Sequence record: MT446403.1
Reading direction: 5' to 3' (one strand)
Origin: Escherichia virus TH29
Length of the DNA: 53,648 nt
The position numbers and the translations under genes were made by a program. Within the stretch, counting starts at the first letter, position 1. Each line of letters starts with the position of its first letter. The notes below the pieces were generated by a model, which worked only from the letters and a program-made list of their open reading frames with translations, made no database searches and was not told where the DNA came from. Shown here piece after piece: positions 1 to 53,648 of this stretch.

Positions 1-17
1 TCAATTCCAACTAATGT
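1..17 (-). promoter_or_regulatory. Conserved motif copy tcaattCCAACTAATGT at the repeat boundary
   Basis: Member of a motif family with at least 9 copies; this one sits exactly at the first base of the terminal repeat. Confidence 0.4.
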
Positions 18-187
18 CGAATACTCTTCTTGCAAACAGGACAAGTGATGAATCTGTATGCAAAGTATCCTCGGTCATTCTTTCCTGTGTACATCTTTAA
101 GTCAGAGAACACGTAAGATATTGCAGAGAAACATACCCACACTGGCGTGTGAATGTTACGTTATCCTTTTCCAAAACTTTTATCATT

Positions 188-204
188 TCAATTCCAACTA
201 ATGT
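188..204 (-). promoter_or_regulatory. Conserved motif copy tcaattCCAACTAATGT
   Basis: Identical 17-mer to positions 1-17, 187 bp further in. Confidence 0.4.
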
Positions 205-274
205 TTCAGAATTATTCCAATATTCCAAACAAAAAGAATAATAAGAATAAATTAAAAATAAATGAAGAAAGTTC

Positions 275-304
275 TTGACACCCATTTGGCGATAGGTGTA
301 TAAT
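275..304 (+). promoter_or_regulatory. Consensus sigma70-type promoter (TTGACA, 18-bp spacer, TATAAT) with AT-rich upstream tract
   Basis: Perfect -35 TTGACA at 275-280 and perfect -10 TATAAT at 299-304; AT-rich 240-270 resembles an UP element. Points opposite to all genes. Confidence 0.6.
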
Positions 305-330
305 GCCTTTCTTCCCTAAGAGGTCAGAAT

Positions 331-346
331 CAAATCCCACTAATGT
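331..346 (-). promoter_or_regulatory. Conserved motif copy caaatCCCACTAATGT (variant)
   Basis: Third motif copy inside the terminal repeat, one mismatch to the core. Confidence 0.35.
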
Positions 347-414
347 TTCAGACGAAGTGCCGAAGGCGAATCCTCTCCCAAACCCGCTTGGAACAAGATG
401 CCTCCGGCCTGGAA

Positions 415-651
415 CTATACTGCTTTCCAATCTGAATCAAACAGTTCCTTTGGTCTTGAATAAATTATCGAATTAATTCCCAAGAAAGTGTGATTTCCAT
501 ACTTCTTAACTTCCTGGTAAGCAAATCCATCTACCCAATTACCGCAGTGGGTTTTAATCTTTGTAGCAAACAGAATTCGGTAGTAGTGACCACGTGGCTG
601 GTGGAAGAGAATATCTTCTGGCTTGATTGAGTTGATATTTAAATCAGACAT
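415..651 (-). CDS. Hypothetical small protein, lies inside the terminal repeat so it is present twice
   Basis: 78-aa ORF (MSDLNINSIKPEDILFH...); identical copy at 53338-53574. Confidence 0.5.
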   Translation of the reverse strand: MSDLNINSIKPEDILFHQPRGHYYRILFATKIKTHCGNWVDGFAYQEVKKYGNHTFLGINSIIYSRPKELFDSDWKAV

Positions 652-1192
652 TTAAGAACAATACCCCTTCGGAGAAGATGTAGTCACTGCCGTAATCTTT
701 GGTGATTGCATCCCAATCAATATATGGCGCAAGGCGGTCTGGAATATCCAGTGCTTCACTTTGCTTCAAATATTCTGCAATTGAGTCGCAACGTGTGATG
801 AACATGTCGTTCAAACTATCCACGGTGAAAATATCAATCTCACCACTACGGAATGCCGCAAGAATTACAAACAAATCAGTGTCATTTAAAAGTTCATTGA
901 ATTTGTCATACTTGCGTAGGCTGAATAGGCCATCAACAAAGCAAACTTCTGTAACATCCTCATCTCTTGATTCGAGAATGTCATAAGTCCCTGTTTCTGG
1001 GTACTCGATGCCATATTCTTCGTGTAAATATTCTGACATGTTGAAGCCATAGAGCCGCCATGCCAGACCATCAATCCAAGCATCTTCATACTCGGAATTG
1101 TTTTCGCCTGTGTAGAAACGAACCAATAAGGTTTCATCTCTACGCCAGGACTTAAGCTGTTCTACTGCTTGAGTAATGTTATCGTTTTGCAT
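644..1192 (-). CDS. Hypothetical protein
   Basis: ORF 644-1246; likely start at MQNDNIT. Acidic protein with no recognised motif. Confidence 0.5.
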   Translation of the reverse strand: MQNDNITQAVEQLKSWRRDETLLVRFYTGENNSEYEDAWIDGLAWRLYGFNMSEYLHEEYGIEYPETGTYDILESRDEDVTEVCFVDGLFSLRKYDKFNELLNDTDLFVILAAFRSGEIDIFTVDSLNDMFITRCDSIAEYLKQSEALDIPDRLAPYIDWDAITKDYGSDYIFSEGVLFLNV

Positions 1193-3329: not shown

Positions 3330-3355
3330 GAGGCCACTCGAAGTGGAATGGCCTC
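3330..3355 (-). terminator. Intergenic hairpin, possible terminator or processing site
   Basis: GAGGCCA...TGGCCTC 7-bp inverted repeat followed on the minus strand by a U/A-rich tract and the next gene's RBS. Confidence 0.3.
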
Positions 3356-4156: not shown

Positions 4157-4552
4157 TCATCGATTAAGTCCCTCTCCGTTTTCGGCATGCCACTCATTAT
4201 GGTGGCGAGGACACAACCAGCGAACATCAAGTGGTTTGTTGTAATCATCATGGTGAGCATGAGTTATTTCACAGCCACATACTTGACAGGGTTTTACTTG
4301 TAATCGTCCACTCCTAATGGCAAGATTCACCTTATTTTGTGCCTTGTATTGATTAGGATACTTCTTCCTGGCATCATTAAGGCCATTACCGTGATAACCC
4401 CGTTTGCGGTCATAGTTTCGGTAATAGTCAATCTTCTCTGCACGGTTTGCCCGTACCTTAGCACATCTGCAAACTTTACATGTCTTGTCATTGGCGTAGA
4501 AGTCTGTAGGAGCTTTTAAACTCCCGCAGATTTTACATTGCTTATCCATCAA
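4157..4552 (-). CDS. HNH endonuclease
   Basis: 131 aa with Cys pairs (CKICG, CKVCRC, CQVCGC) and HAHHDDYNKPLDVRWLCPRHHNEWH HNH motif. Confidence 0.75.
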   Translation of the reverse strand: MMDKQCKICGSLKAPTDFYANDKTCKVCRCAKVRANRAEKIDYYRNYDRKRGYHGNGLNDARKKYPNQYKAQNKVNLAIRSGRLQVKPCQVCGCEITHAHHDDYNKPLDVRWLCPRHHNEWHAENGEGLNR

Positions 4553-4929
4553 AATGGAATTTCAGAGTCAAAGCCCTGCGGCTCATTTGGGTTGTATCCA
4601 GATGACTGCGGAGCTTGTTGCTGAACAGGCGCTTGCTGTTGCTGTGCAGCAGAAGGTTGCTGACGTTGCTGTTGAGCGGCAGCTTGAGGTTGAGCTTTGG
4701 CTTTAGCTTTCTCTTCACGCTTACGCATCATTTCATCAACTTGTTCTTGGGTCATGATGGTCAGTGCCAGCGAGGTAAATTCATTACCATTGGCTTGCTT
4801 GTTCCAACCAGACACCCAATACCAGATTCCGTCAACGTTAATACGTCCACGAACGTCAGGATGTTTTGGGTCTTTCTTGAAGCCATTGGAGCCGATGATG
4901 CCAGTGTTTACGTCTGAATATTGTGCCAT
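4549..4929 (-). CDS. Small protein with SSB-like disordered linker and acidic C-terminal tip (DSEIPF)
   Basis: 126 aa; Q/A/P-rich linker ending GFDSEIPF, closely resembling the E. coli SSB C-terminal DDDIPF tip; N-terminal domain only about 70 aa. Confidence 0.55.
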   Translation of the reverse strand: MAQYSDVNTGIIGSNGFKKDPKHPDVRGRINVDGIWYWVSGWNKQANGNEFTSLALTIMTQEQVDEMMRKREEKAKAKAQPQAAAQQQRQQPSAAQQQQAPVQQQAPQSSGYNPNEPQGFDSEIPF

Positions 4930-5002
4930 GATTAAGATTCTCTTAAGTTAATTTACGGTTTAAGTTTCAGCGACATTGCTAACCACGGAATAGCTTTGTC
5001 TC

Positions 5003-5019
5003 TCACATCCAACTAATGT
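5003..5019 (-). promoter_or_regulatory. Conserved motif copy tcacatCCAACTAATGT
   Basis: About 75 bp upstream of the start of gene 4549-4929. Confidence 0.45.
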
Positions 5020-5059
5020 TGAATTAATCAGGAACACTCAATGAATGCTCCTTGTTAAT

Positions 5060-7849: not shown

Positions 7850-8133
7850 TTTATTCTCCTAAGTTAAAAGAAAACTCCCGTCATAACGATTGTGGAGGTC
7901 TTGTGTTACCTTAATCCACCTTAAAGAATCAGGGAGTTACATATTAGTCTGTGTGTGCTGCTCTCGGTTACTTCCTAGTATTGCGAAGCTCTTGCATTCC
8001 CGCAAACCACACCTTTTGCACAGACCGTATGTGACACAACAAGTGCCGAAAACTACAATGATTAGCTTGGAGACATAATCTCTCTAAAATCTGTCACACA
8101 ATTTCAGCAGAATTTACAGAGATTTGGTCTTAT

Positions 8134-8149
8134 TCACATGCAACTAATG
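8134..8149 (-). promoter_or_regulatory. Conserved motif copy tcacatgCAACTAATGa (variant)
   Basis: Inside the 7.86-9.1 kb non-coding control region. Confidence 0.35.
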
Positions 8150-8342
8150 ATAAATGGACATGCTTAATTGCAACCAATTCATCTGCCAAATAGACGAATT
8201 TAGTCACAATCAAACATGCATCATTAATTACAGGTTTGCTCCTATCTTGGAATGTATTTGGCACATCAAGAAGTGGCGCAACAGGTACGGAAAACCGACC
8301 ATGTACAGCATAATAAAACTAATTAAATAAAGGGTTTTATCC

Positions 8343-8609: not shown

Positions 8610-8983
8610 TGTTGCTCAAATTCGGGTGCGGCTACGAGACTAATCTCGATGCTTTGCTCCGACTCTTCTCTTCTTTCGAATTCTGATTGAAAGAAAGAAG
8701 CATGTCCAAAAGTTCCAGTCTTGCCAAAGTTATCTCCCGGCTTGTGGGTGGGCCTTGATAATAGGAGAATACAATATTGGAACAATTGGTCATGCTTGTA
8801 TTGAAGAACAGTTTCGAATGATAATCCTACTTCACACATGGTTGTTGGAGCTTTGTCTGGCCAAAGACAGGGAGTTCAATGATTGCCACATCATTACAAC
8901 ACTGTGTGTTTAGTTGACATGCTGAAATGTTTCTAGAATGATTTCAACATGACATGCGGAATACTTCTCCGTATTCTGTTACT

Positions 8984-9000
8984 TCACATCCAACTAATGT
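8984..9000 (-). promoter_or_regulatory. Conserved motif copy tcacatCCAACTAATGT
   Basis: Just downstream (minus sense) of the RNAP terminator and upstream of the repeat-rich region. Confidence 0.45.
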
Positions 9001-9062
9001 CGAATATTGAAACAATATTACATGCAGCAATATTGCTTGAATATTGGGAATTAAAGGATTTA

Positions 9063-11057: not shown

Positions 11058-11124
11058 TTGTAAGTCTCCAAGATTGTGTATGATTTGAATGAAACGGATT
11101 ATAATAGCGTAGCCATTACACAAT

Positions 11125-11140
11125 TCACGTCCAACTAATA
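11125..11140 (-). promoter_or_regulatory. Conserved motif copy tcacgtCCAACTAATa
   Basis: About 70 bp upstream of the RNAP start codon. Confidence 0.45.
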
Positions 11141-11326
11141 TCACAAACCTGTGCCATTGTTAGCACAGCACAGGGACTTTGACCTTGACTCATAAGCGAA
11201 GCGCCTAACTTGGTGTTGTTTGAAAGCCGATAGGCTGCAGGAAAAAGTTGGGGCAGGGACCGTATTTAAGTCCGATAGGACGTTGGGCTTCCCCTCCCCG
11301 CCACCTCAAAAATAAAAATAATATCG

Positions 11327-42001: not shown

Positions 42002-42865
42002 TTAGAACGGCATTCCAGTGCCGCCAGCAGCACCACCTTCCGCTTCACGCTGTGCTTTTGCAGCAGCTTGAGCTTCCAGTTCAGCTTTCATTGCTGCATC
42101 AACTTCTTCATCAGAAGCCTGATTCGGAACAGAATCATCAGCAGGTTTACCGCCCAGCAGAACAGACAGTTTGGTTTTGTAGAAGTCAACACCAGCAGTG
42201 ATGCGGTTCTTGATTGCGTAAGGAGAATCACCACCAGGCAGTTTGTTGAACACTTCCAGGTCTGGTTCAGACATGTCGAAGAACACAGTCGGGTTAACCA
42301 GAGCTTTGGCTTCTTTCTTCTCTTTGGACTTCATTGGGGAGAAGGTAGCAACCTTGTTCGCAACCTGACCAGCGTTCTTGCCAGACTGTTTGGTGTATTG
42401 AACAATGCCAACAACCAGAGGTTCGCTCAGCCAATCTGGCAGGTTCTTAGCAGGGTGGCCCTGAATACCTTGTTCCAGATTCTGCTTAACTTCCAGAGCA
42501 TCAATCGCCTTAGCGAATTTGTAGATGTGGGAGTTGTCACCCATGAAGCCGTCAGCGTTGTAGGTAAACTCAAAGTCAAACCAACGCGGCTTGTCTTCAA
42601 GATTCTTCGCCATCATTACGCCGTCATCTTCGTCCGGGTCTTGGACCATGACCATGGCACCATTGCCATCAACTTCTTTCATGTACTCGTCGAGCAGCTC
42701 GAAAGTGACCAGAAGTTTCAGAGATGGGTTTGGATATTTAGCAGAGCCTGGCTGTAAGCCCAGGTCGATAATACGGCAGACACGAGCAGGATAACCACCC
42801 GCTTCCAGTAATGGTGCAGCAGAAGGAGTCTTGTTCGAGGCCAAAGTAGGAGCAGCAAATGCCAT
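42002..42865 (-). CDS. Putative ssDNA-binding protein (T7 gp2.5-like by position and C-terminus)
   Basis: 287 aa between exonuclease and polymerase genes; ends with a charged/Ala/Gly-rich tail and C-terminal Phe. Confidence 0.3.
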   Translation of the reverse strand: MAFAAPTLASNKTPSAAPLLEAGGYPARVCRIIDLGLQPGSAKYPNPSLKLLVTFELLDEYMKEVDGNGAMVMVQDPDEDDGVMMAKNLEDKPRWFDFEFTYNADGFMGDNSHIYKFAKAIDALEVKQNLEQGIQGHPAKNLPDWLSEPLVVGIVQYTKQSGKNAGQVANKVATFSPMKSKEKKEAKALVNPTVFFDMSEPDLEVFNKLPGGDSPYAIKNRITAGVDFYKTKLSVLLGGKPADDSVPNQASDEEVDAAMKAELEAQAAAKAQREAEGGAAGGTGMPF

Positions 42866-50569: not shown

Positions 50570-50908
50570 TTAGAATACCGGAGCTTCTTCTACAGCAGCT
50601 TCTGCTACTGCAACAGCGGCTTCTTCTTCGACCTTAACTTCTTTCACGGTGTCGAACACAGTGCGTTCAACTTCCGGACAACCAGCTTCAACCCACGGCA
50701 GGTAGAATGCCAGGAATGCAGCAGCGGTGTTGGTCTGCATTGAGCGAGAACGGTCAATCAGTTTGTTGGTGTTTGCGAACGCTTCAACAGCAGCTTCAAT
50801 TTTAGCGCCGTTTTCCAGTTTAAAATCGTGTGCGTTACACTCAGCTTCGCTCAGGAACAGGGAACCATCGTTAGCTTCGTACTGAGTTACGGTTACAATC
50901 TTAGCCAT
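50570..50908 (-). CDS. Hypothetical early protein with acidic Ala/Glu-rich C-terminus
   Basis: ORF 50570-50995; likely start MAKIVTVTQ at 50908; motif copy about 80 bp upstream. Confidence 0.5.
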   Translation of the reverse strand: MAKIVTVTQYEANDGSLFLSEAECNAHDFKLENGAKIEAAVEAFANTNKLIDRSRSMQTNTAAAFLAFYLPWVEAGCPEVERTVFDTVKEVKVEEEAAVAVAEAAVEEAPVF

Positions 50909-50985
50909 TTGTATATACCTTATATTAAATAGTTTTGCACGCCACGGTGACGTGACTGTAGATAGATTAAAGAGCCTTTCTCTTT

Positions 50986-51002
50986 TCACATCCAATTAAT
51001 GT
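50986..51002 (-). promoter_or_regulatory. Conserved motif copy tcacatCCAAtTAATGT
   Basis: One mismatch to the core; upstream of gene 50570-50908. Confidence 0.45.
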
Positions 51003-51031
51003 GTCAGGACTGCTCTGATTTAACAAACAAC

Positions 51032-51707: not shown

Positions 51708-52085
51708 TTAGTGGCCTTGTAGGATACGTTTGTTCGCAGTTTCTGCGTCGATTCCCAAATCAACTAATGTAACCAAGCACTGTGAAATCCGCTCTTGCGC
51801 AGCTTTCTCCAGAATTTGGTATTTTTCGTCGTTAACGCCTAACACATTCTTGGCATGAATGAGTGTAGCCATTAGGCCATGCCCCAAAGCAACTGCTTGC
51901 ATTGCCTGGAGTTCAAAGTTGATTGTGATACCAGCGAGTTCATGCTCTTTCTGGATAATCTCAATCAACTCTTCTTTCGATTTGTCTTGTAAGTTCAAAA
52001 TGGAACTCCGTACATTGGCTGGTCTGTTGTCCAGCTGTAAATGAAAGATTTGGACAGAAGATGCTCGACTGGCTTGCCGAAGCAA
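51708..52085 (-). CDS. Hypothetical early protein
   Basis: 125-aa ORF; N-terminal extent uncertain because it overlaps the upstream ORF. Confidence 0.45.
   Translation of the reverse strand: MLRQASRASSVQIFHLQLDNRPANVRSSILNLQDKSKEELIEIIQKEHELAGITINFELQAMQAVALGHGLMATLIHAKNVLGVNDEKYQILEKAAQERISQCLVTLVDLGIDAETANKRILQGH
51755..51770 (-). promoter_or_regulatory. Conserved motif copy ccaaatCAACTAATGT (variant)
   Basis: About 55 bp upstream of the MSYHDDDK start, inside the 3' end of the upstream gene. Confidence 0.35.
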
Positions 52086-52285
52086 TATTCCATGAAGGAT
52101 GGGTTGTAGGTTGCATTGTTTAACAATTCTTTAATCGAATACTTATTCATAAAGAATGCAAACTTTGAGTCGCTTCCTTCCCAACCAAATATATAAAACT
52201 TTCCACCCAAGAAAGCAAATGCTTCCATCTCTCCTGTGTGAATATTACGGGCCTTAATGACCCGGATAGAATGTTTGCGAATCAT
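51995..52285 (-). CDS. Hypothetical protein, first gene after the right-hand non-coding region
   Basis: 96-aa ORF; ATG at 52283-52285 with GGAGAG RBS. Confidence 0.5.
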   Translation of the reverse strand: MIRKHSIRVIKARNIHTGEMEAFAFLGGKFYIFGWEGSDSKFAFFMNKYSIKELLNNATYNPSFMEYCFGKPVEHLLSKSFIYSWTTDQPMYGVPF

Positions 52286-52923
52286 AGGAACTCTCCAATT
52301 TTCGATTCGATGTTTGTGACGCTTCTCTCATCTTTTGGCCTTGTGGAAACAGCCACAGGGTAGCGCAGGAAGCCCGATTTCCGGGCCGTAGCCTACCGTT
52401 TGTGTCAATTCTGGATAACTGCATTGGCGAAGGGTTACTCCCGTTAGGGTGCGATACGCTAATCACATGAGTGTCGTCGCCTTACGGCTCAGGCGTGTCA
52501 CAGAGGCTTTGCAACCCTTCCCAATACATTCACCCAAATACCAGCTTTGGCGTAGCTGGTGGCTCTGTTTTGTGCGGATTATGCCACTCTAAGCCCTGTT
52601 TGTCCGACTTCCTCGGAGCACCAGCGGCTTGTGGCACAAACCTATTTTAGAATGACTAACATAAGCATGAGGCATAACCCTCTAATTATTCAGCCCTAAC
52701 AGCTTGCTTATTCAGTACCAATTCAACCCAATACATACACAACTATATACAATAGCGAACTATCTGCGAAAACTATCCGGCCCTATGGCCTAAGTTAAAG
52801 TTAATAGTGTGTGATGGAAACATTCCATCGAAAATAACTTTGCAGAATGAGTCGAACATTCTCACACGTCTAGCGGCCGCAACGGTCTACCGAGTTACAA
52901 AGTTATTATCTGATGTTGTTTCT

Positions 52924-53648
52924 TCAATTCCAACTAATGTCGAATACTCTTCTTGCAAACAGGACAAGTGATGAATCTGTATGCAAAGTATCCTCGGTCA
53001 TTCTTTCCTGTGTACATCTTTAAGTCAGAGAACACGTAAGATATTGCAGAGAAACATACCCACACTGGCGTGTGAATGTTACGTTATCCTTTTCCAAAAC
53101 TTTTATCATTTCAATTCCAACTAATGTTTCAGAATTATTCCAATATTCCAAACAAAAAGAATAATAAGAATAAATTAAAAATAAATGAAGAAAGTTCTTG
53201 ACACCCATTTGGCGATAGGTGTATAATGCCTTTCTTCCCTAAGAGGTCAGAATCAAATCCCACTAATGTTTCAGACGAAGTGCCGAAGGCGAATCCTCTC
53301 CCAAACCCGCTTGGAACAAGATGCCTCCGGCCTGGAACTATACTGCTTTCCAATCTGAATCAAACAGTTCCTTTGGTCTTGAATAAATTATCGAATTAAT
53401 TCCCAAGAAAGTGTGATTTCCATACTTCTTAACTTCCTGGTAAGCAAATCCATCTACCCAATTACCGCAGTGGGTTTTAATCTTTGTAGCAAACAGAATT
53501 CGGTAGTAGTGACCACGTGGCTGGTGGAAGAGAATATCTTCTGGCTTGATTGAGTTGATATTTAAATCAGACATTTAAGAACAATACCCCTTCGGAGAAG
53601 ATGTAGTCACTGCCGTAATCTTTGGTGATTGCATCCCAATCAATATAT
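52924..53648. repeat. Right copy of direct terminal repeat (identical to 1-725)
   Basis: Exact repeat of the left end, including the three motif copies, the sigma70 promoter (53198-53227) and the 78-aa ORF (53338-53574). Confidence 0.9.

What the first reader, a model, noticed from the sequence alone, without database searches (positions are those of the whole stretch)
4549..4929. Small protein carrying an SSB-like disordered linker and C-terminal acidic tip (DSEIPF)
The C-terminal 50 residues are a Q/A/P-rich linker ending GFDSEIPF, strikingly like the E. coli SSB tail (...DFDDDIPF) that recruits many host genome-maintenance proteins. The N-terminal domain is only about 70 aa, short for an OB-fold SSB, and a separate SSB-like gene sits in the replisome module. 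This may be a minimal SSB, or a tail mimic that recruits or titrates host SSB-interacting proteins.
Basis: partly seen in the sequence, partly recalled or inferred. Interest (0 to 1): 0.55.

Follow-up and report, generated by a model that had tools for sequence, protein, structure and literature searches.

The report
Non-OB phage SSB-like protein with host tail
This phage gene encodes a 126-residue protein that joins a tiny, previously undescribed beta-sheet domain (not the usual SSB fold) to a copy of the bacterial SSB recruiting tail; it belongs to a large, untested phage family that sits where SSB genes normally sit.

Summary
Window 4549..4929 (- strand) encodes a 126-aa protein with a folded N-terminal ~80 residues, a Q/P/A-rich disordered linker, and the tip GFDSEIPF. 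The window is a complete phiEcoM-GJ1-like (Chaseviridae) phage genome, and the gene is the homolog of gp15, annotated "SSB" since 2008.

That label appears to rest on the tail alone. Every SSB-model and PDB hit aligns only to the last ~40 residues. The family consensus tail, ...NEPPMDFDDDIPF, equals the E. coli SSB tail.

The domain defines a large family: about 1,800 clusters at 50% identity. Most members are 80-140 aa and about two thirds to four fifths end in -PF. Some carry two tandem domains.

In environmental viral contigs the gene lies directly after YqaJ-type exonuclease or Erf annealase genes. In 2-aminoadenine phages it lies between the DpoZ polymerase and PurZ.

Best reading: a non-OB, SSB-like hub that coats phage ssDNA and recruits proteins that read the SSB tail. 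A pure tail decoy remains possible. ssDNA binding is inferred, not shown.

The parts
5002..5021 (-). Phage-RNA-polymerase promoter (CAACATTAGTTGGATGTGAG), 73 nt upstream of the start codon
   Evidence: Exact copy of phiEcoM-GJ1 'putative phage promoter 3', which sits at the same distance upstream of gp15.
4938..4944 (-). Ribosome-binding-site-like AAGAGAA, 8 nt before the ATG
   Evidence: Read from the sequence. The same motif is listed for the ST32 homolog ORF19 in PMC6266442.
4549..4929 (-). Complete CDS (126 aa plus stop) of the SSB-like protein, the homolog of phiEcoM-GJ1 gp15
   Evidence: PHROG 7364 E 6e-44. 44 close homologs.
4750..4929 (-). Residues 1-60: four-stranded antiparallel beta-meander domain (strands 10-14, 26-32, 35-46, 49-58). 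This is the family-defining core, with motifs NxG, HPDxRG, GxWYWxSGW and FTSLA
   Evidence: AlphaFold model with 129-sequence alignment, pLDDT 91-98. Invariant columns. A profile of this domain finds 1,800 cluster representatives.
4693..4749 (-). Residues 61-79: alpha-helix (TQEQVDEMMRKREEKAKAK). Conserved in the Chaseviridae branch and absent from the shortest family members
   Evidence: helix 61-79. Alignment. Short members such as P0066, 83 aa, have no room for it.
4576..4692 (-). Residues 80-118: Q/P/A-rich disordered linker
   Evidence: Composition. No secondary structure, pLDDT 37-68. Length and sequence vary among homologs.
4552..4575 (-). Residues 119-126: GFDSEIPF, an SSB-Ct-type tip (family consensus DFDDDIPF)
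4157..4549 (-). HNH-type endonuclease gene (130 aa) directly downstream. Its start overlaps the stop (TGATG). It is in the same transcription unit and absent at this position in phiEcoM-GJ1
   Evidence: PHROG 2340 'endonuclease' E 3.6e-30. Sequence. Comparison with the gp15-gp16 arrangement.
3330..3355 (-). Terminator-like hairpin that probably ends the promoter-SSB-like-HNH-39aa-229aa transcription unit
   Evidence: Consensus scan only. A terminator is annotated at the equivalent place in SA91KD.
42002..42865 (-). 287-aa ORF between DNA polymerase and 5'-3' exonuclease, ending ...GTGMPF. Candidate second, gp2.5-style SSB; not part of the finding but relevant to its role
   Evidence: No SSB similarity found.

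Best explanation
The gene encodes a non-OB, SSB-like hub protein.

A ~60-residue four-stranded beta-meander, followed here by one helix, is proposed to oligomerise and bind single-stranded DNA. This step is inferred. A ~40-residue disordered Q/P/A linker presents a C-terminal tip, FDSEIPF-COOH, of the bacterial SSB-Ct type. Bound to phage replication or recombination intermediates, the protein would display many such tips. Those tips would recruit proteins that read the SSB tail: the host SSB interactome and/or the phage's own enzymes.

It is transcribed as the first gene after a phage-specific promoter.

Shown here: the ORF, the domain layout, the predicted fold class, the tail identity, the family-wide coupling of domain and tip, and the gene neighbourhoods.

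Inferred: ssDNA binding, oligomerisation, and which partners dock on the tip.
For: (1) Architecture. The confident model is beta1-4 plus a helix (residues 1-79, pLDDT >90) followed by an unstructured tail.

(2) The tail matches host SSB.
- PDB and NCBIfam ssb hits come through the tail only.
- Relatives share up to 20/27 residues with the E. coli SSB C-terminus (E 1e-10).
- In phages K21lambda1 and PMBT28 the last 40-42 nt are 92.5% and 88% identical to the E. coli ssb 3' end. This suggests capture from a bacterial ssb.

(3) Domain and tip are coupled across a large family.
- 1,800 representatives at E<=1e-3.
- 96 of the 149 sequences examined (the window protein plus the 148 best representatives) end in PF and 110 end in F.
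- 92 of 113 IMG/VR copies end in PF.

(4) 17 of those 149 have two tandem N-domains and one tail. This fits a functional unit made of at least two domains, as in two-OB SSBs.

(5) Gene context.
- In 29 distinct environmental viral loci, 17 have a same-strand upstream neighbour of 150-320 aa. Of these, 7 are YqaJ/RecE-type exonucleases, 6 are Erf, 2 match a PHROG family labelled 'recombinase' and 1 is an endonuclease VII.
- The other neighbours within 3 genes add hits to Erf-like, RecE-like exonuclease, 'recombinase', Sak-like, UvsX-like and DnaB/primase families, with no canonical SSB family among the 25 most frequent.
- In phiVC8, SH-Ab 15497, K21lambda1 and PMBT28 the gene lies in the helicase-DpoZ-[X]-PurZ block.

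(6) No ORF in the window or in PMBT28 resembles the E. coli SSB OB domain or T7 gp2.5.

(7) Precedent from papers.
- Phage SSB tips recruit annealases. Sak4 needs the last six residues of its cognate SSB (PMC5928155).
- RecTs read the last 7 residues of SSB (bioRxiv 10.1101/2020.04.14.041095).

(8) Indirect function. A PMBT28 helicase-dpoZ-ssb cassette raised 2-aminoadenine incorporation in E. coli (PMC12944874; bioRxiv 10.1101/2025.10.22.683976). That the 'ssb' in this cassette is the family member is my inference from gene order.
Against: - No member of this family has been shown to bind ssDNA. The 'SSB' labels in GenBank and PHROGs appear to trace to tail similarity.
- In this phage the gene is in the early/middle small-gene region, not in the replisome block. 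No Erf/RecT-type annealase was noted in the annotation of its relatives.
- If the 287-aa protein is the replicative SSB, this gene could be accessory.
- In the PMBT28 experiments the ssb was never tested alone.
Confidence: 0.55

Rival explanations
1. Tail decoy. The protein does not bind DNA. The small N-domain only oligomerises, and the abundant free SSB-Ct tips compete with host SSB for its partners (chi/Pol III, PriA, ExoI, RecJ, RecQ, Ung). This would shut off host replication and repair or protect phage DNA ends.
For: - The tail is host-identical in many members, down to 13 residues, and is similar even at DNA level in some.
- The domain is very small with no DNA-binding homolog.
- The gene is promoter-proximal among early small genes typical of host takeover.
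- A second candidate SSB exists in the replisome block.
Against: - Family-wide synteny with exonuclease/annealase pairs and with DNA polymerases is what is expected of a working SSB, not of an inhibitor.
- Tandem-domain variants and strongly conserved aromatic and basic positions (W36/Y37/W38/W42, K18, R29, K44) suggest a ligand-binding surface rather than a mere oligomerisation plug.
- The PMBT28 cassette helped rather than hindered plasmid replication with dZ.
Confidence: 0.2
2. Protein adaptor. The N-domain binds a phage protein or host SSB rather than DNA. Candidates are an annealase, an exonuclease, the polymerase or the 287-aa protein. The adaptor would lend that partner a host-type SSB tip in trans.
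For: - The gene is tightly adjacent, on the same strand, to Erf/YqaJ or DpoZ genes.
- Several small proteins in this phage carry conserved -PF ends, which hints at a shared docking system.
Against: - The neighbours differ: Erf, YqaJ exonuclease, Sak, DpoZ, or none in Chaseviridae. The N-domain stays conserved. That is easier to explain by a common ligand such as ssDNA than by many different protein partners.
Confidence: 0.12
3. Ordinary minimal OB-fold SSB. The N-terminal domain is a shortened OB fold that tetramerises like bacterial SSB, as the database annotation implies.
For: - Annotated 'single-stranded DNA-binding protein' in relatives and in PHROG 7364.
- Weak local sequence matches to the OB-fold Shiga toxin B subunit (E 0.3-1.5).
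Against: - No Pfam SSB or other OB-family hit, even at E<=10.
- ssb models align only to the tail.
- The confident model has beta-beta-beta-beta-alpha order, not the OB order beta1-3/alpha/beta4-5.
Confidence: 0.03

Closest known systems
Bacterial homotetrameric SSB (E. coli SSB; Pfam PF00436 / TIGR00621)
   Same: - Same three-part logic: a folded N-terminal module, a low-complexity disordered linker, and an acidic tip ending I-P-F-COOH.
- The family consensus NEPPMDFDDDIPF is identical to the E. coli tail.
- It occupies the gene slot where phage-encoded SSBs usually lie.
   Different: - The N-module is ~60-80 aa with beta4(-alpha) topology instead of a ~112-aa OB fold.
- There is no sequence or structural similarity outside the tail.
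- The window's own tip is a variant, DSEIPF.
PC4-like / Whirly / PUR ssDNA-binding domains, including the phage T5 PC4 homolog (PDB 4bg7) proposed as the T5 replicative SSB
   Same: - Non-OB, small, beta-beta-beta-beta-alpha units that work as dimers or as tandem repeats (review PMC7549692).
- The model here has the same order of elements.
- The family has both single- and double-domain members.
   Different: - Generic beta-meanders score as well or better.
- The helix is missing in short and tandem family members, so the conserved core is beta4 only.
- PC4-like proteins do not carry an SSB-Ct tip.
DUF736 (Pfam PF05284), an uncharacterised backbone protein of conjugative elements
   Same: - 6 of 129 family members give weak DUF736 hits (best E 3e-4).
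- A DUF736 viral protein is the first non-family structural match in BFVD (E 0.09, probability 0.96).
- DUF736 genes are core genes of Mesorhizobium ICEs (PMC8627217). Conjugative elements transfer their DNA as a single strand (my own knowledge).
   Different: - The window protein itself gives no DUF736 hit.
- One family member's N-domain (P0075) found nothing in 72,556 plasmids by tblastn.
- DUF736 has no known function. I have not verified whether it lacks the SSB-type tail.
T7 gp2.5 / Enc34 ORF6-type phage SSBs
   Same: A phage-encoded SSB whose acidic C-terminal tail, ending in an aromatic residue, docks replisome proteins (described in bioRxiv 10.1101/2025.11.11.687766).
   Different: - gp2.5 is a 232-aa OB-fold protein with its own tail type (...DGDF). 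The target has a host-type tip and a different fold.
- In this window the 287-aa ORF (42002..42865) is the better candidate for a gp2.5 analog by position and tail style. It shows no sequence similarity to gp2.5 either.
SSB of phage HK620, partner of Sak4
   Same: A phage SSB encoded next to an annealase. Its last six residues (NDYPPF) are needed to load the annealase on coated ssDNA (PMC5928155). This parallels the Erf/exonuclease-[X] gene pairs found here.
   Different: HK620 SSB is described in that paper as a distant homolog of bacterial SSB, purified as a 21-kDa monomer that forms tetramers. That it is an OB-fold protein is my own knowledge. The target family is 80-130 aa and non-OB.

Membership tests
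Bacterial-type SSB (PF00436 / TIGR00621) | N-terminal OB-fold ssDNA-binding domain of about 110 aa | tested here: not met
   [not shown]
Bacterial-type SSB (PF00436 / TIGR00621) | Intrinsically disordered, low-complexity linker | tested here: met
   Residues 80-118 are Q/P/A-rich, have no predicted secondary structure and have low pLDDT. Length varies among homologs.
Bacterial-type SSB (PF00436 / TIGR00621) | C-terminal acidic tip ending [IL]-P-F-COOH (SSB-Ct) | tested here: met
   FDSEIPF at the C-terminus. The family consensus DFDDDIPF is identical to E. coli SSB.
Bacterial-type SSB (PF00436 / TIGR00621) | Cooperative ssDNA binding as a homotetramer | not testable with these tools
   Needs biochemistry or multimer/nucleic-acid structure prediction. 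The only indirect hint is the existence of tandem two-domain relatives.
PC4-like (PC4 / Whirly / PUR) ssDNA-binding fold | beta-beta-beta-beta-alpha unit | tested here: met
   Strands 10-14, 26-32, 35-46 and 49-58, then helix 61-79, all at pLDDT >90. The definition is taken from PMC7549692.
PC4-like (PC4 / Whirly / PUR) ssDNA-binding fold | Significant 3D similarity to solved PC4-like domains | tested here: inconclusive
   [not shown]
PC4-like (PC4 / Whirly / PUR) ssDNA-binding fold | Two units pack, as a dimer or a tandem repeat, into one nucleic-acid-binding domain in which the helices are integral | tested here: inconclusive
   Tandem members exist (17 of 149). However, the segment between their two domains, and the short single-domain members, lack a helix-length stretch. 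Dimer geometry is not testable here.
DUF736 (PF05284) | Match to the Pfam model at or above its gathering score | tested here: not met
   No hit for the window protein. 6 of 129 relatives give weak hits (best E 3e-4). One weak structural match to a viral DUF736 protein. This points at most to a distant relationship.
PHROG 7364 / 18154 (phage proteins labelled 'single strand DNA binding protein') | Profile match over the N-terminal domain | tested here: met
   phrog_7364 E 6.1e-44, residues 1-91. phrog_18154 E 2e-13, residues 3-126. The label is an annotation, not a tested function.
T7 gp2.5-like SSB | gp2.5-type OB fold plus an acidic tail ending in an aromatic residue | tested here: not met
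   The tail criterion is met. phmmer of T7 gp2.5 against all window ORFs finds nothing, and the fold is beta4-alpha.

The most novel reading that the evidence does not exclude
The ~55-residue beta-meander is a new ssDNA-binding module, neither OB nor clearly PC4-like. It defines a third structural class of phage replication/recombination SSBs. It is evolutionarily linked to DUF736 of conjugative elements, which would then also be ssDNA-handling proteins. These mini-SSBs repeatedly captured the SSB-Ct tail from their hosts' ssb genes, so that an 80-130-aa protein can plug phage ssDNA into the host SSB interactome and into phage annealases and polymerases, including DpoZ in 2-aminoadenine phages.
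Probability: 0.35. Interest if true: 0.75.

Novelty: new variant of a known kind. Interest (0 to 1): 0.6.

Why it matters
SSBs are treated as near-universally OB-fold proteins. The bacterial SSB-Ct tip is a hub for at least a dozen genome-maintenance enzymes, and it determines whether recombineering annealases are portable between hosts.

An 80-130-aa non-OB protein family that carries this tip and sits in the SSB slot would matter in four ways:
- It would add a new minimal DNA-binding scaffold to the SSB repertoire.
- It would correct a tail-driven annotation carried by at least 130 sequenced phage records found here and by about 1,800 sequence clusters.
- It would offer very small, host-matched SSB partners for Erf/RecT recombineering and for DpoZ-based synthesis of 2-aminoadenine DNA.
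- It would give a first functional lead for DUF736 on conjugative elements.

If it is instead a decoy, it would be a compact natural inhibitor of the SSB interactome, which is already pursued as an antibacterial target.

Tried and rejected
- Pfam, NCBIfam and PDB sequence searches with the protein and with family profiles found nothing for the N-domain.
- For the 287-aa protein, Pfam, a PDB profile search and hhalign against T7 gp2.5 were all negative.
- tblastn of a family N-domain against plasmids found no match.
- Literature searches for an SSB-tail mimic or a described non-OB SSB of this family found nothing specific.
- The Retron-Eco8 paper concerns T7 gp2.5, not this family.
- Providencia phage Kokobel2 was checked as a possible named exonuclease-Erf example, but all of its neighbouring genes are unannotated.

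Full report
WHAT THE WINDOW IS

Megablast of 3000-7000 hits 45 phage records at 85-95% identity. The relatives examined are Carltongylesvirus (Chaseviridae), such as Escherichia phage phiEcoM-GJ1, ST32, MLP1 and SA91KD. The gene order matches those genomes in reverse orientation. Bases 1-725 are identical to 52924-53648, so the window is a complete genome with a 725-bp terminal repeat.

THE OBSERVATION

The ORF listing gives a single ATG ORF at 4549..4929 on the - strand. It encodes 126 aa: MAQYSDVNTGIIGSNGFKKDPKHPDVRGRINVDGIWYWVSGWNKQANGNEFTSLALTIMTQEQVDEMMRKREEKAKAKAQPQAAAQQQRQQPSAAQQQQAPVQQQAPQSSGYNPNEPQGFDSEIPF. Residues 80-126 hold 16 Q, 7 P and 7 A.

Only three ORFs of >=50 aa in the window end in [ILVM]PF, against 0.1 expected from shuffles.

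The gene is the homolog of phiEcoM-GJ1 gp15, which is annotated 'single strand DNA binding protein'. The same label is used in most annotated relatives and in PHROG 7364 (E 6e-44).

WHERE THE 'SSB' LABEL COMES FROM

Pfam gives nothing relevant for the whole protein or for residues 1-72.

The NCBIfam ssb models align only residues 40-126 to their C-terminal ends, far below cutoff (TIGR00621: 19.9 bits against 53.95).

A profile of 28 homologs hits only E. coli-type SSB chains in the PDB, and only through profile positions 82-122, which align to ...SNEPPMDFDDDIPF.

BLASTP against E. coli K-12 SSB, taken from NC_000913, aligns 11/24 terminal residues for the window protein (E 0.002). For the Pantoea phage homolog P0033 it aligns 20/27 (E 1e-10).

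Among 28 homologs, F120, D121, P125 and F126 are invariant, and most tails read (P)P(M)DFDDDIPF. The similarity to SSB is therefore real but confined to the linker and tip.

In phages K21lambda1 and PMBT28 the last 40-42 nt are 92.5% and 88% identical to the 3' end of E. coli ssb. This suggests the tail was captured from a bacterial ssb. The window's own tail is diverged at DNA level (23/42 identical).

THE N-TERMINAL DOMAIN

A first AlphaFold model from 28 close homologs was weak (mean pLDDT 62).

A profile of the N-domain alone, searched against 1.84 billion cluster representatives, found 1,800 proteins at E<=1e-3 and 111 at E<=1e-10. With 129 of these in the alignment, the model became confident. 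pLDDT is 91-98 for residues 1-80. Strands lie at 10-14, 26-32, 35-46 and 49-58, and a helix at 61-79. Residues 81-126 have no secondary structure and pLDDT around 60-68.

This order, beta-beta-beta-beta-alpha, is not the OB order.

The review PMC7549692 defines PC4-like domains as beta4-alpha units that pair as dimers or tandem repeats. That resembles this family. However, the scores are not significant, and the helix is absent from short members such as P0066 (83 aa) and from the segment between the two domains of tandem members. I therefore treat the PC4 resemblance as topological only.

The only other lead is DUF736. Six of 129 members give weak Pfam hits (best E 3e-4). A viral DUF736 protein is the first non-family match in BFVD (E 0.09, probability 0.96).

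THE FAMILY

I examined 149 sequences: the window protein plus the 148 best representatives, leaving out one spurious repeat protein. Most are 80-140 aa. Of the 149, 96 end in PF and 110 end in F, usually after acidic residues. Seventeen carry two tandem N-domains followed by one tail.

A DNA-pattern scan of IMG/VR (YDNTNxG, 12 codons, HPD) returned 120 loci. Of these, 113 encode a family member with a median length of 85 aa. The commonest endings are IPF (40), DPF (10), and VPF, LPF, APF and TPF (8 each); 92 of the 113 end in PF. The coupling of this small domain with an SSB-type tip is thus a family trait, not a peculiarity of this phage.

One family member's N-domain (P0075) found no plasmid match by tblastn. 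Cultured-phage members number about 130-150 records. They include Chaseviridae, the Vibrio cholerae VP2/VP5/phiVC8 group, Acinetobacter, Klebsiella, Salmonella, Burkholderia and Providencia phages.

GENE CONTEXT

In this window

An exact copy of phiEcoM-GJ1 'phage promoter 3' lies at 5021..5002 (- strand), 73 nt upstream of the ATG. The gene is followed by an HNH endonuclease gene whose ATG overlaps the stop (TGATG). Then come a 39-aa and a 229-aa ORF and a terminator-like hairpin at 3355..3330. The gene is thus the first cistron of a phage-polymerase transcript in the early/middle region, not in the replisome block.

Elsewhere

In the 2-aminoadenine phages phiVC8, SH-Ab 15497, K21lambda1 and PMBT28, the homolog lies inside the replication block. 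The order is helicase, DNA polymerase I (DpoZ), the small gene, then PurZ.

The 113 IMG/VR copies fall into 29 clusters at 70% identity. In 17 of these the immediate upstream same-strand neighbour is 150-320 aa. Of those 17:
- 7 are YqaJ/RecE-type exonucleases (PF09588).
- 6 are Erf (PF04404).
- 2 match a PHROG family labelled 'recombinase'.
- 1 is an endonuclease VII.

The remaining 95 neighbours within three genes give further hits. The counts are per PHROG family, and one protein can match several related families:
- Erf-like families: 10 and 8 members.
- 'Recombinase': 5.
- RecE-like exonuclease families: 4 each.
- Sak-like: 3, and UvsX-like: 3.
- DnaB-like helicase and primase/helicase families: 3 each.
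- No canonical SSB family appears among the 25 most frequent.

Exonuclease, annealase, then SSB is the usual layout of phage recombination modules. In my reading, the small gene occupies the SSB position.

No ORF in this window or in PMBT28 resembles the E. coli SSB OB domain or T7 gp2.5 by phmmer.

FUNCTIONAL PRECEDENTS AND INDIRECT DATA

[quoted passage not shown] RecT proteins recognise the last seven residues of SSB (bioRxiv 10.1101/2020.04.14.041095).

A PMBT28 'helicase-dpoZ-ssb' cassette raised 2-aminoadenine incorporation in E. coli plasmids (PMC12944874; bioRxiv 10.1101/2025.10.22.683976). By gene order, the 'ssb' there should be the 113-aa family member at L007:30248-30589. This identification is my inference, and the gene was not tested alone.

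I found no paper that tests ssDNA binding by any member of this family.

THE 'SEPARATE SSB-LIKE GENE'

The only candidate is the 287-aa ORF at 42002..42865, between the DNA polymerase and the 5'-3' exonuclease. It ends in ...GTGMPF.

Its family has 184 homologs. It matches PHROG 862 (function unknown) and gives a below-cutoff match to NCBIfam NF046043, 'replication initiation protein NGO0469 family'. Family members have acidic C-termini ending in PF, PY, PW or DW. That is the tail logic of T7 gp2.5.

Pfam, a PDB profile search and hhalign against T7 gp2.5 were all negative. Every GenBank homolog is labelled 'hypothetical'. It may be the replisome SSB, but this is unproven.

INTERPRETATION

Shown here:
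- A real gene with a small non-OB beta4-alpha domain, a disordered linker and a host-type SSB tip.
- A large family in which domain and tip travel together.
- Gene neighbourhoods typical of SSB genes.

Inferred:
- That the domain binds ssDNA and oligomerises.
- Which proteins read the tip.

I put 0.55 on the SSB-like hub reading, 0.20 on a pure tail decoy, 0.12 on a protein adaptor, and 0.03 on a conventional OB SSB.

The finding is not new as a gene, since it is already annotated. What is new, to my knowledge, is that the annotation rests on the tail and that the DNA-binding module, if it is one, belongs to no described SSB fold. I rate it a new variant of a known kind.

Noticed in passing
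window 42002-42865 (- strand): A 287-aa 'hypothetical' protein between the DNA polymerase and the 5'-3' exonuclease. Across its family (184 homologs) the C-termini are acidic and end in an aromatic residue (PF/PY/PW/DW), like T7 gp2.5. It has no Pfam or PDB sequence match. It may be an unrecognised replisome SSB.
   Followed up: partly
window 51995-52285 (- strand): A 96-aa early protein ending ...WTTDQPMYGVPF. The motif WTTxQxxYGVPF is conserved in relatives that are only 33-38% identical over the rest of the protein. This is a third protein in this phage with a hydrophobic-Pro-Phe C-terminus, which hints at a shared docking site.
   Followed up: partly
window 4157-4549 (- strand); L004:6001-6863: An HNH-type endonuclease gene is inserted directly after the SSB-like gene (stop and start overlap as TGATG) and is absent there in phiEcoM-GJ1. 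Endonuclease genes also abut the homologous gene in phiVC8 and the Vibrio K-series phages. In phiVC8 p31 and in homolog P0017 the ORF reads 14-15 codons past ...IPF. From my own knowledge of SSB-Ct complexes, that would bury the terminal carboxylate that partner proteins recognise.
   Followed up: partly
L004, L005, L006, L007 (phiVC8, SH-Ab 15497, K21lambda1, PMBT28): In these 2-aminoadenine (Z-genome) phages, the small SSB-like gene always sits between the DpoZ-type DNA polymerase and PurZ, or one gene away from that position. It may be a conserved accessory of the DpoZ replisome.
   Followed up: partly
window 1-725 and 52924-53648: A perfect 725-bp direct terminal repeat. The window is a complete phage genome including its terminal redundancy. 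The repeat contains two copies of phage-promoter-like sequences (187-206 and 329-348, - strand).
   Followed up: yes
window 5002-5021, 8133-8152, 8983-9002, 53110-53129, 53252-53271 (- strand): Exact copies of the five phiEcoM-GJ1 phage-RNA-polymerase promoter sequences (core ATTAGTTGGA). Further near-matches lie at 11124-11143, 50985-51004 and 52923-52942.
   Followed up: partly
GenBank PP952070.1 (hit H136): A record named 'Staphylococcus phage Pel53' (host Staphylococcus hyicus, 53,660 bp) encodes a 287-aa protein 99.3% identical to the window's. It is evidently a Carltongylesvirus-type enterobacterial phage, so the host label looks doubtful.
   Followed up: no
window 50570-50908 (- strand): A 112-aa protein ends in an acidic, alanine-rich stretch, ...EEAAVAVAEAAVEEAPVF. 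The C-terminal 25 residues did not align with relatives in tblastn, so conservation of this tail is unknown.
   Followed up: no
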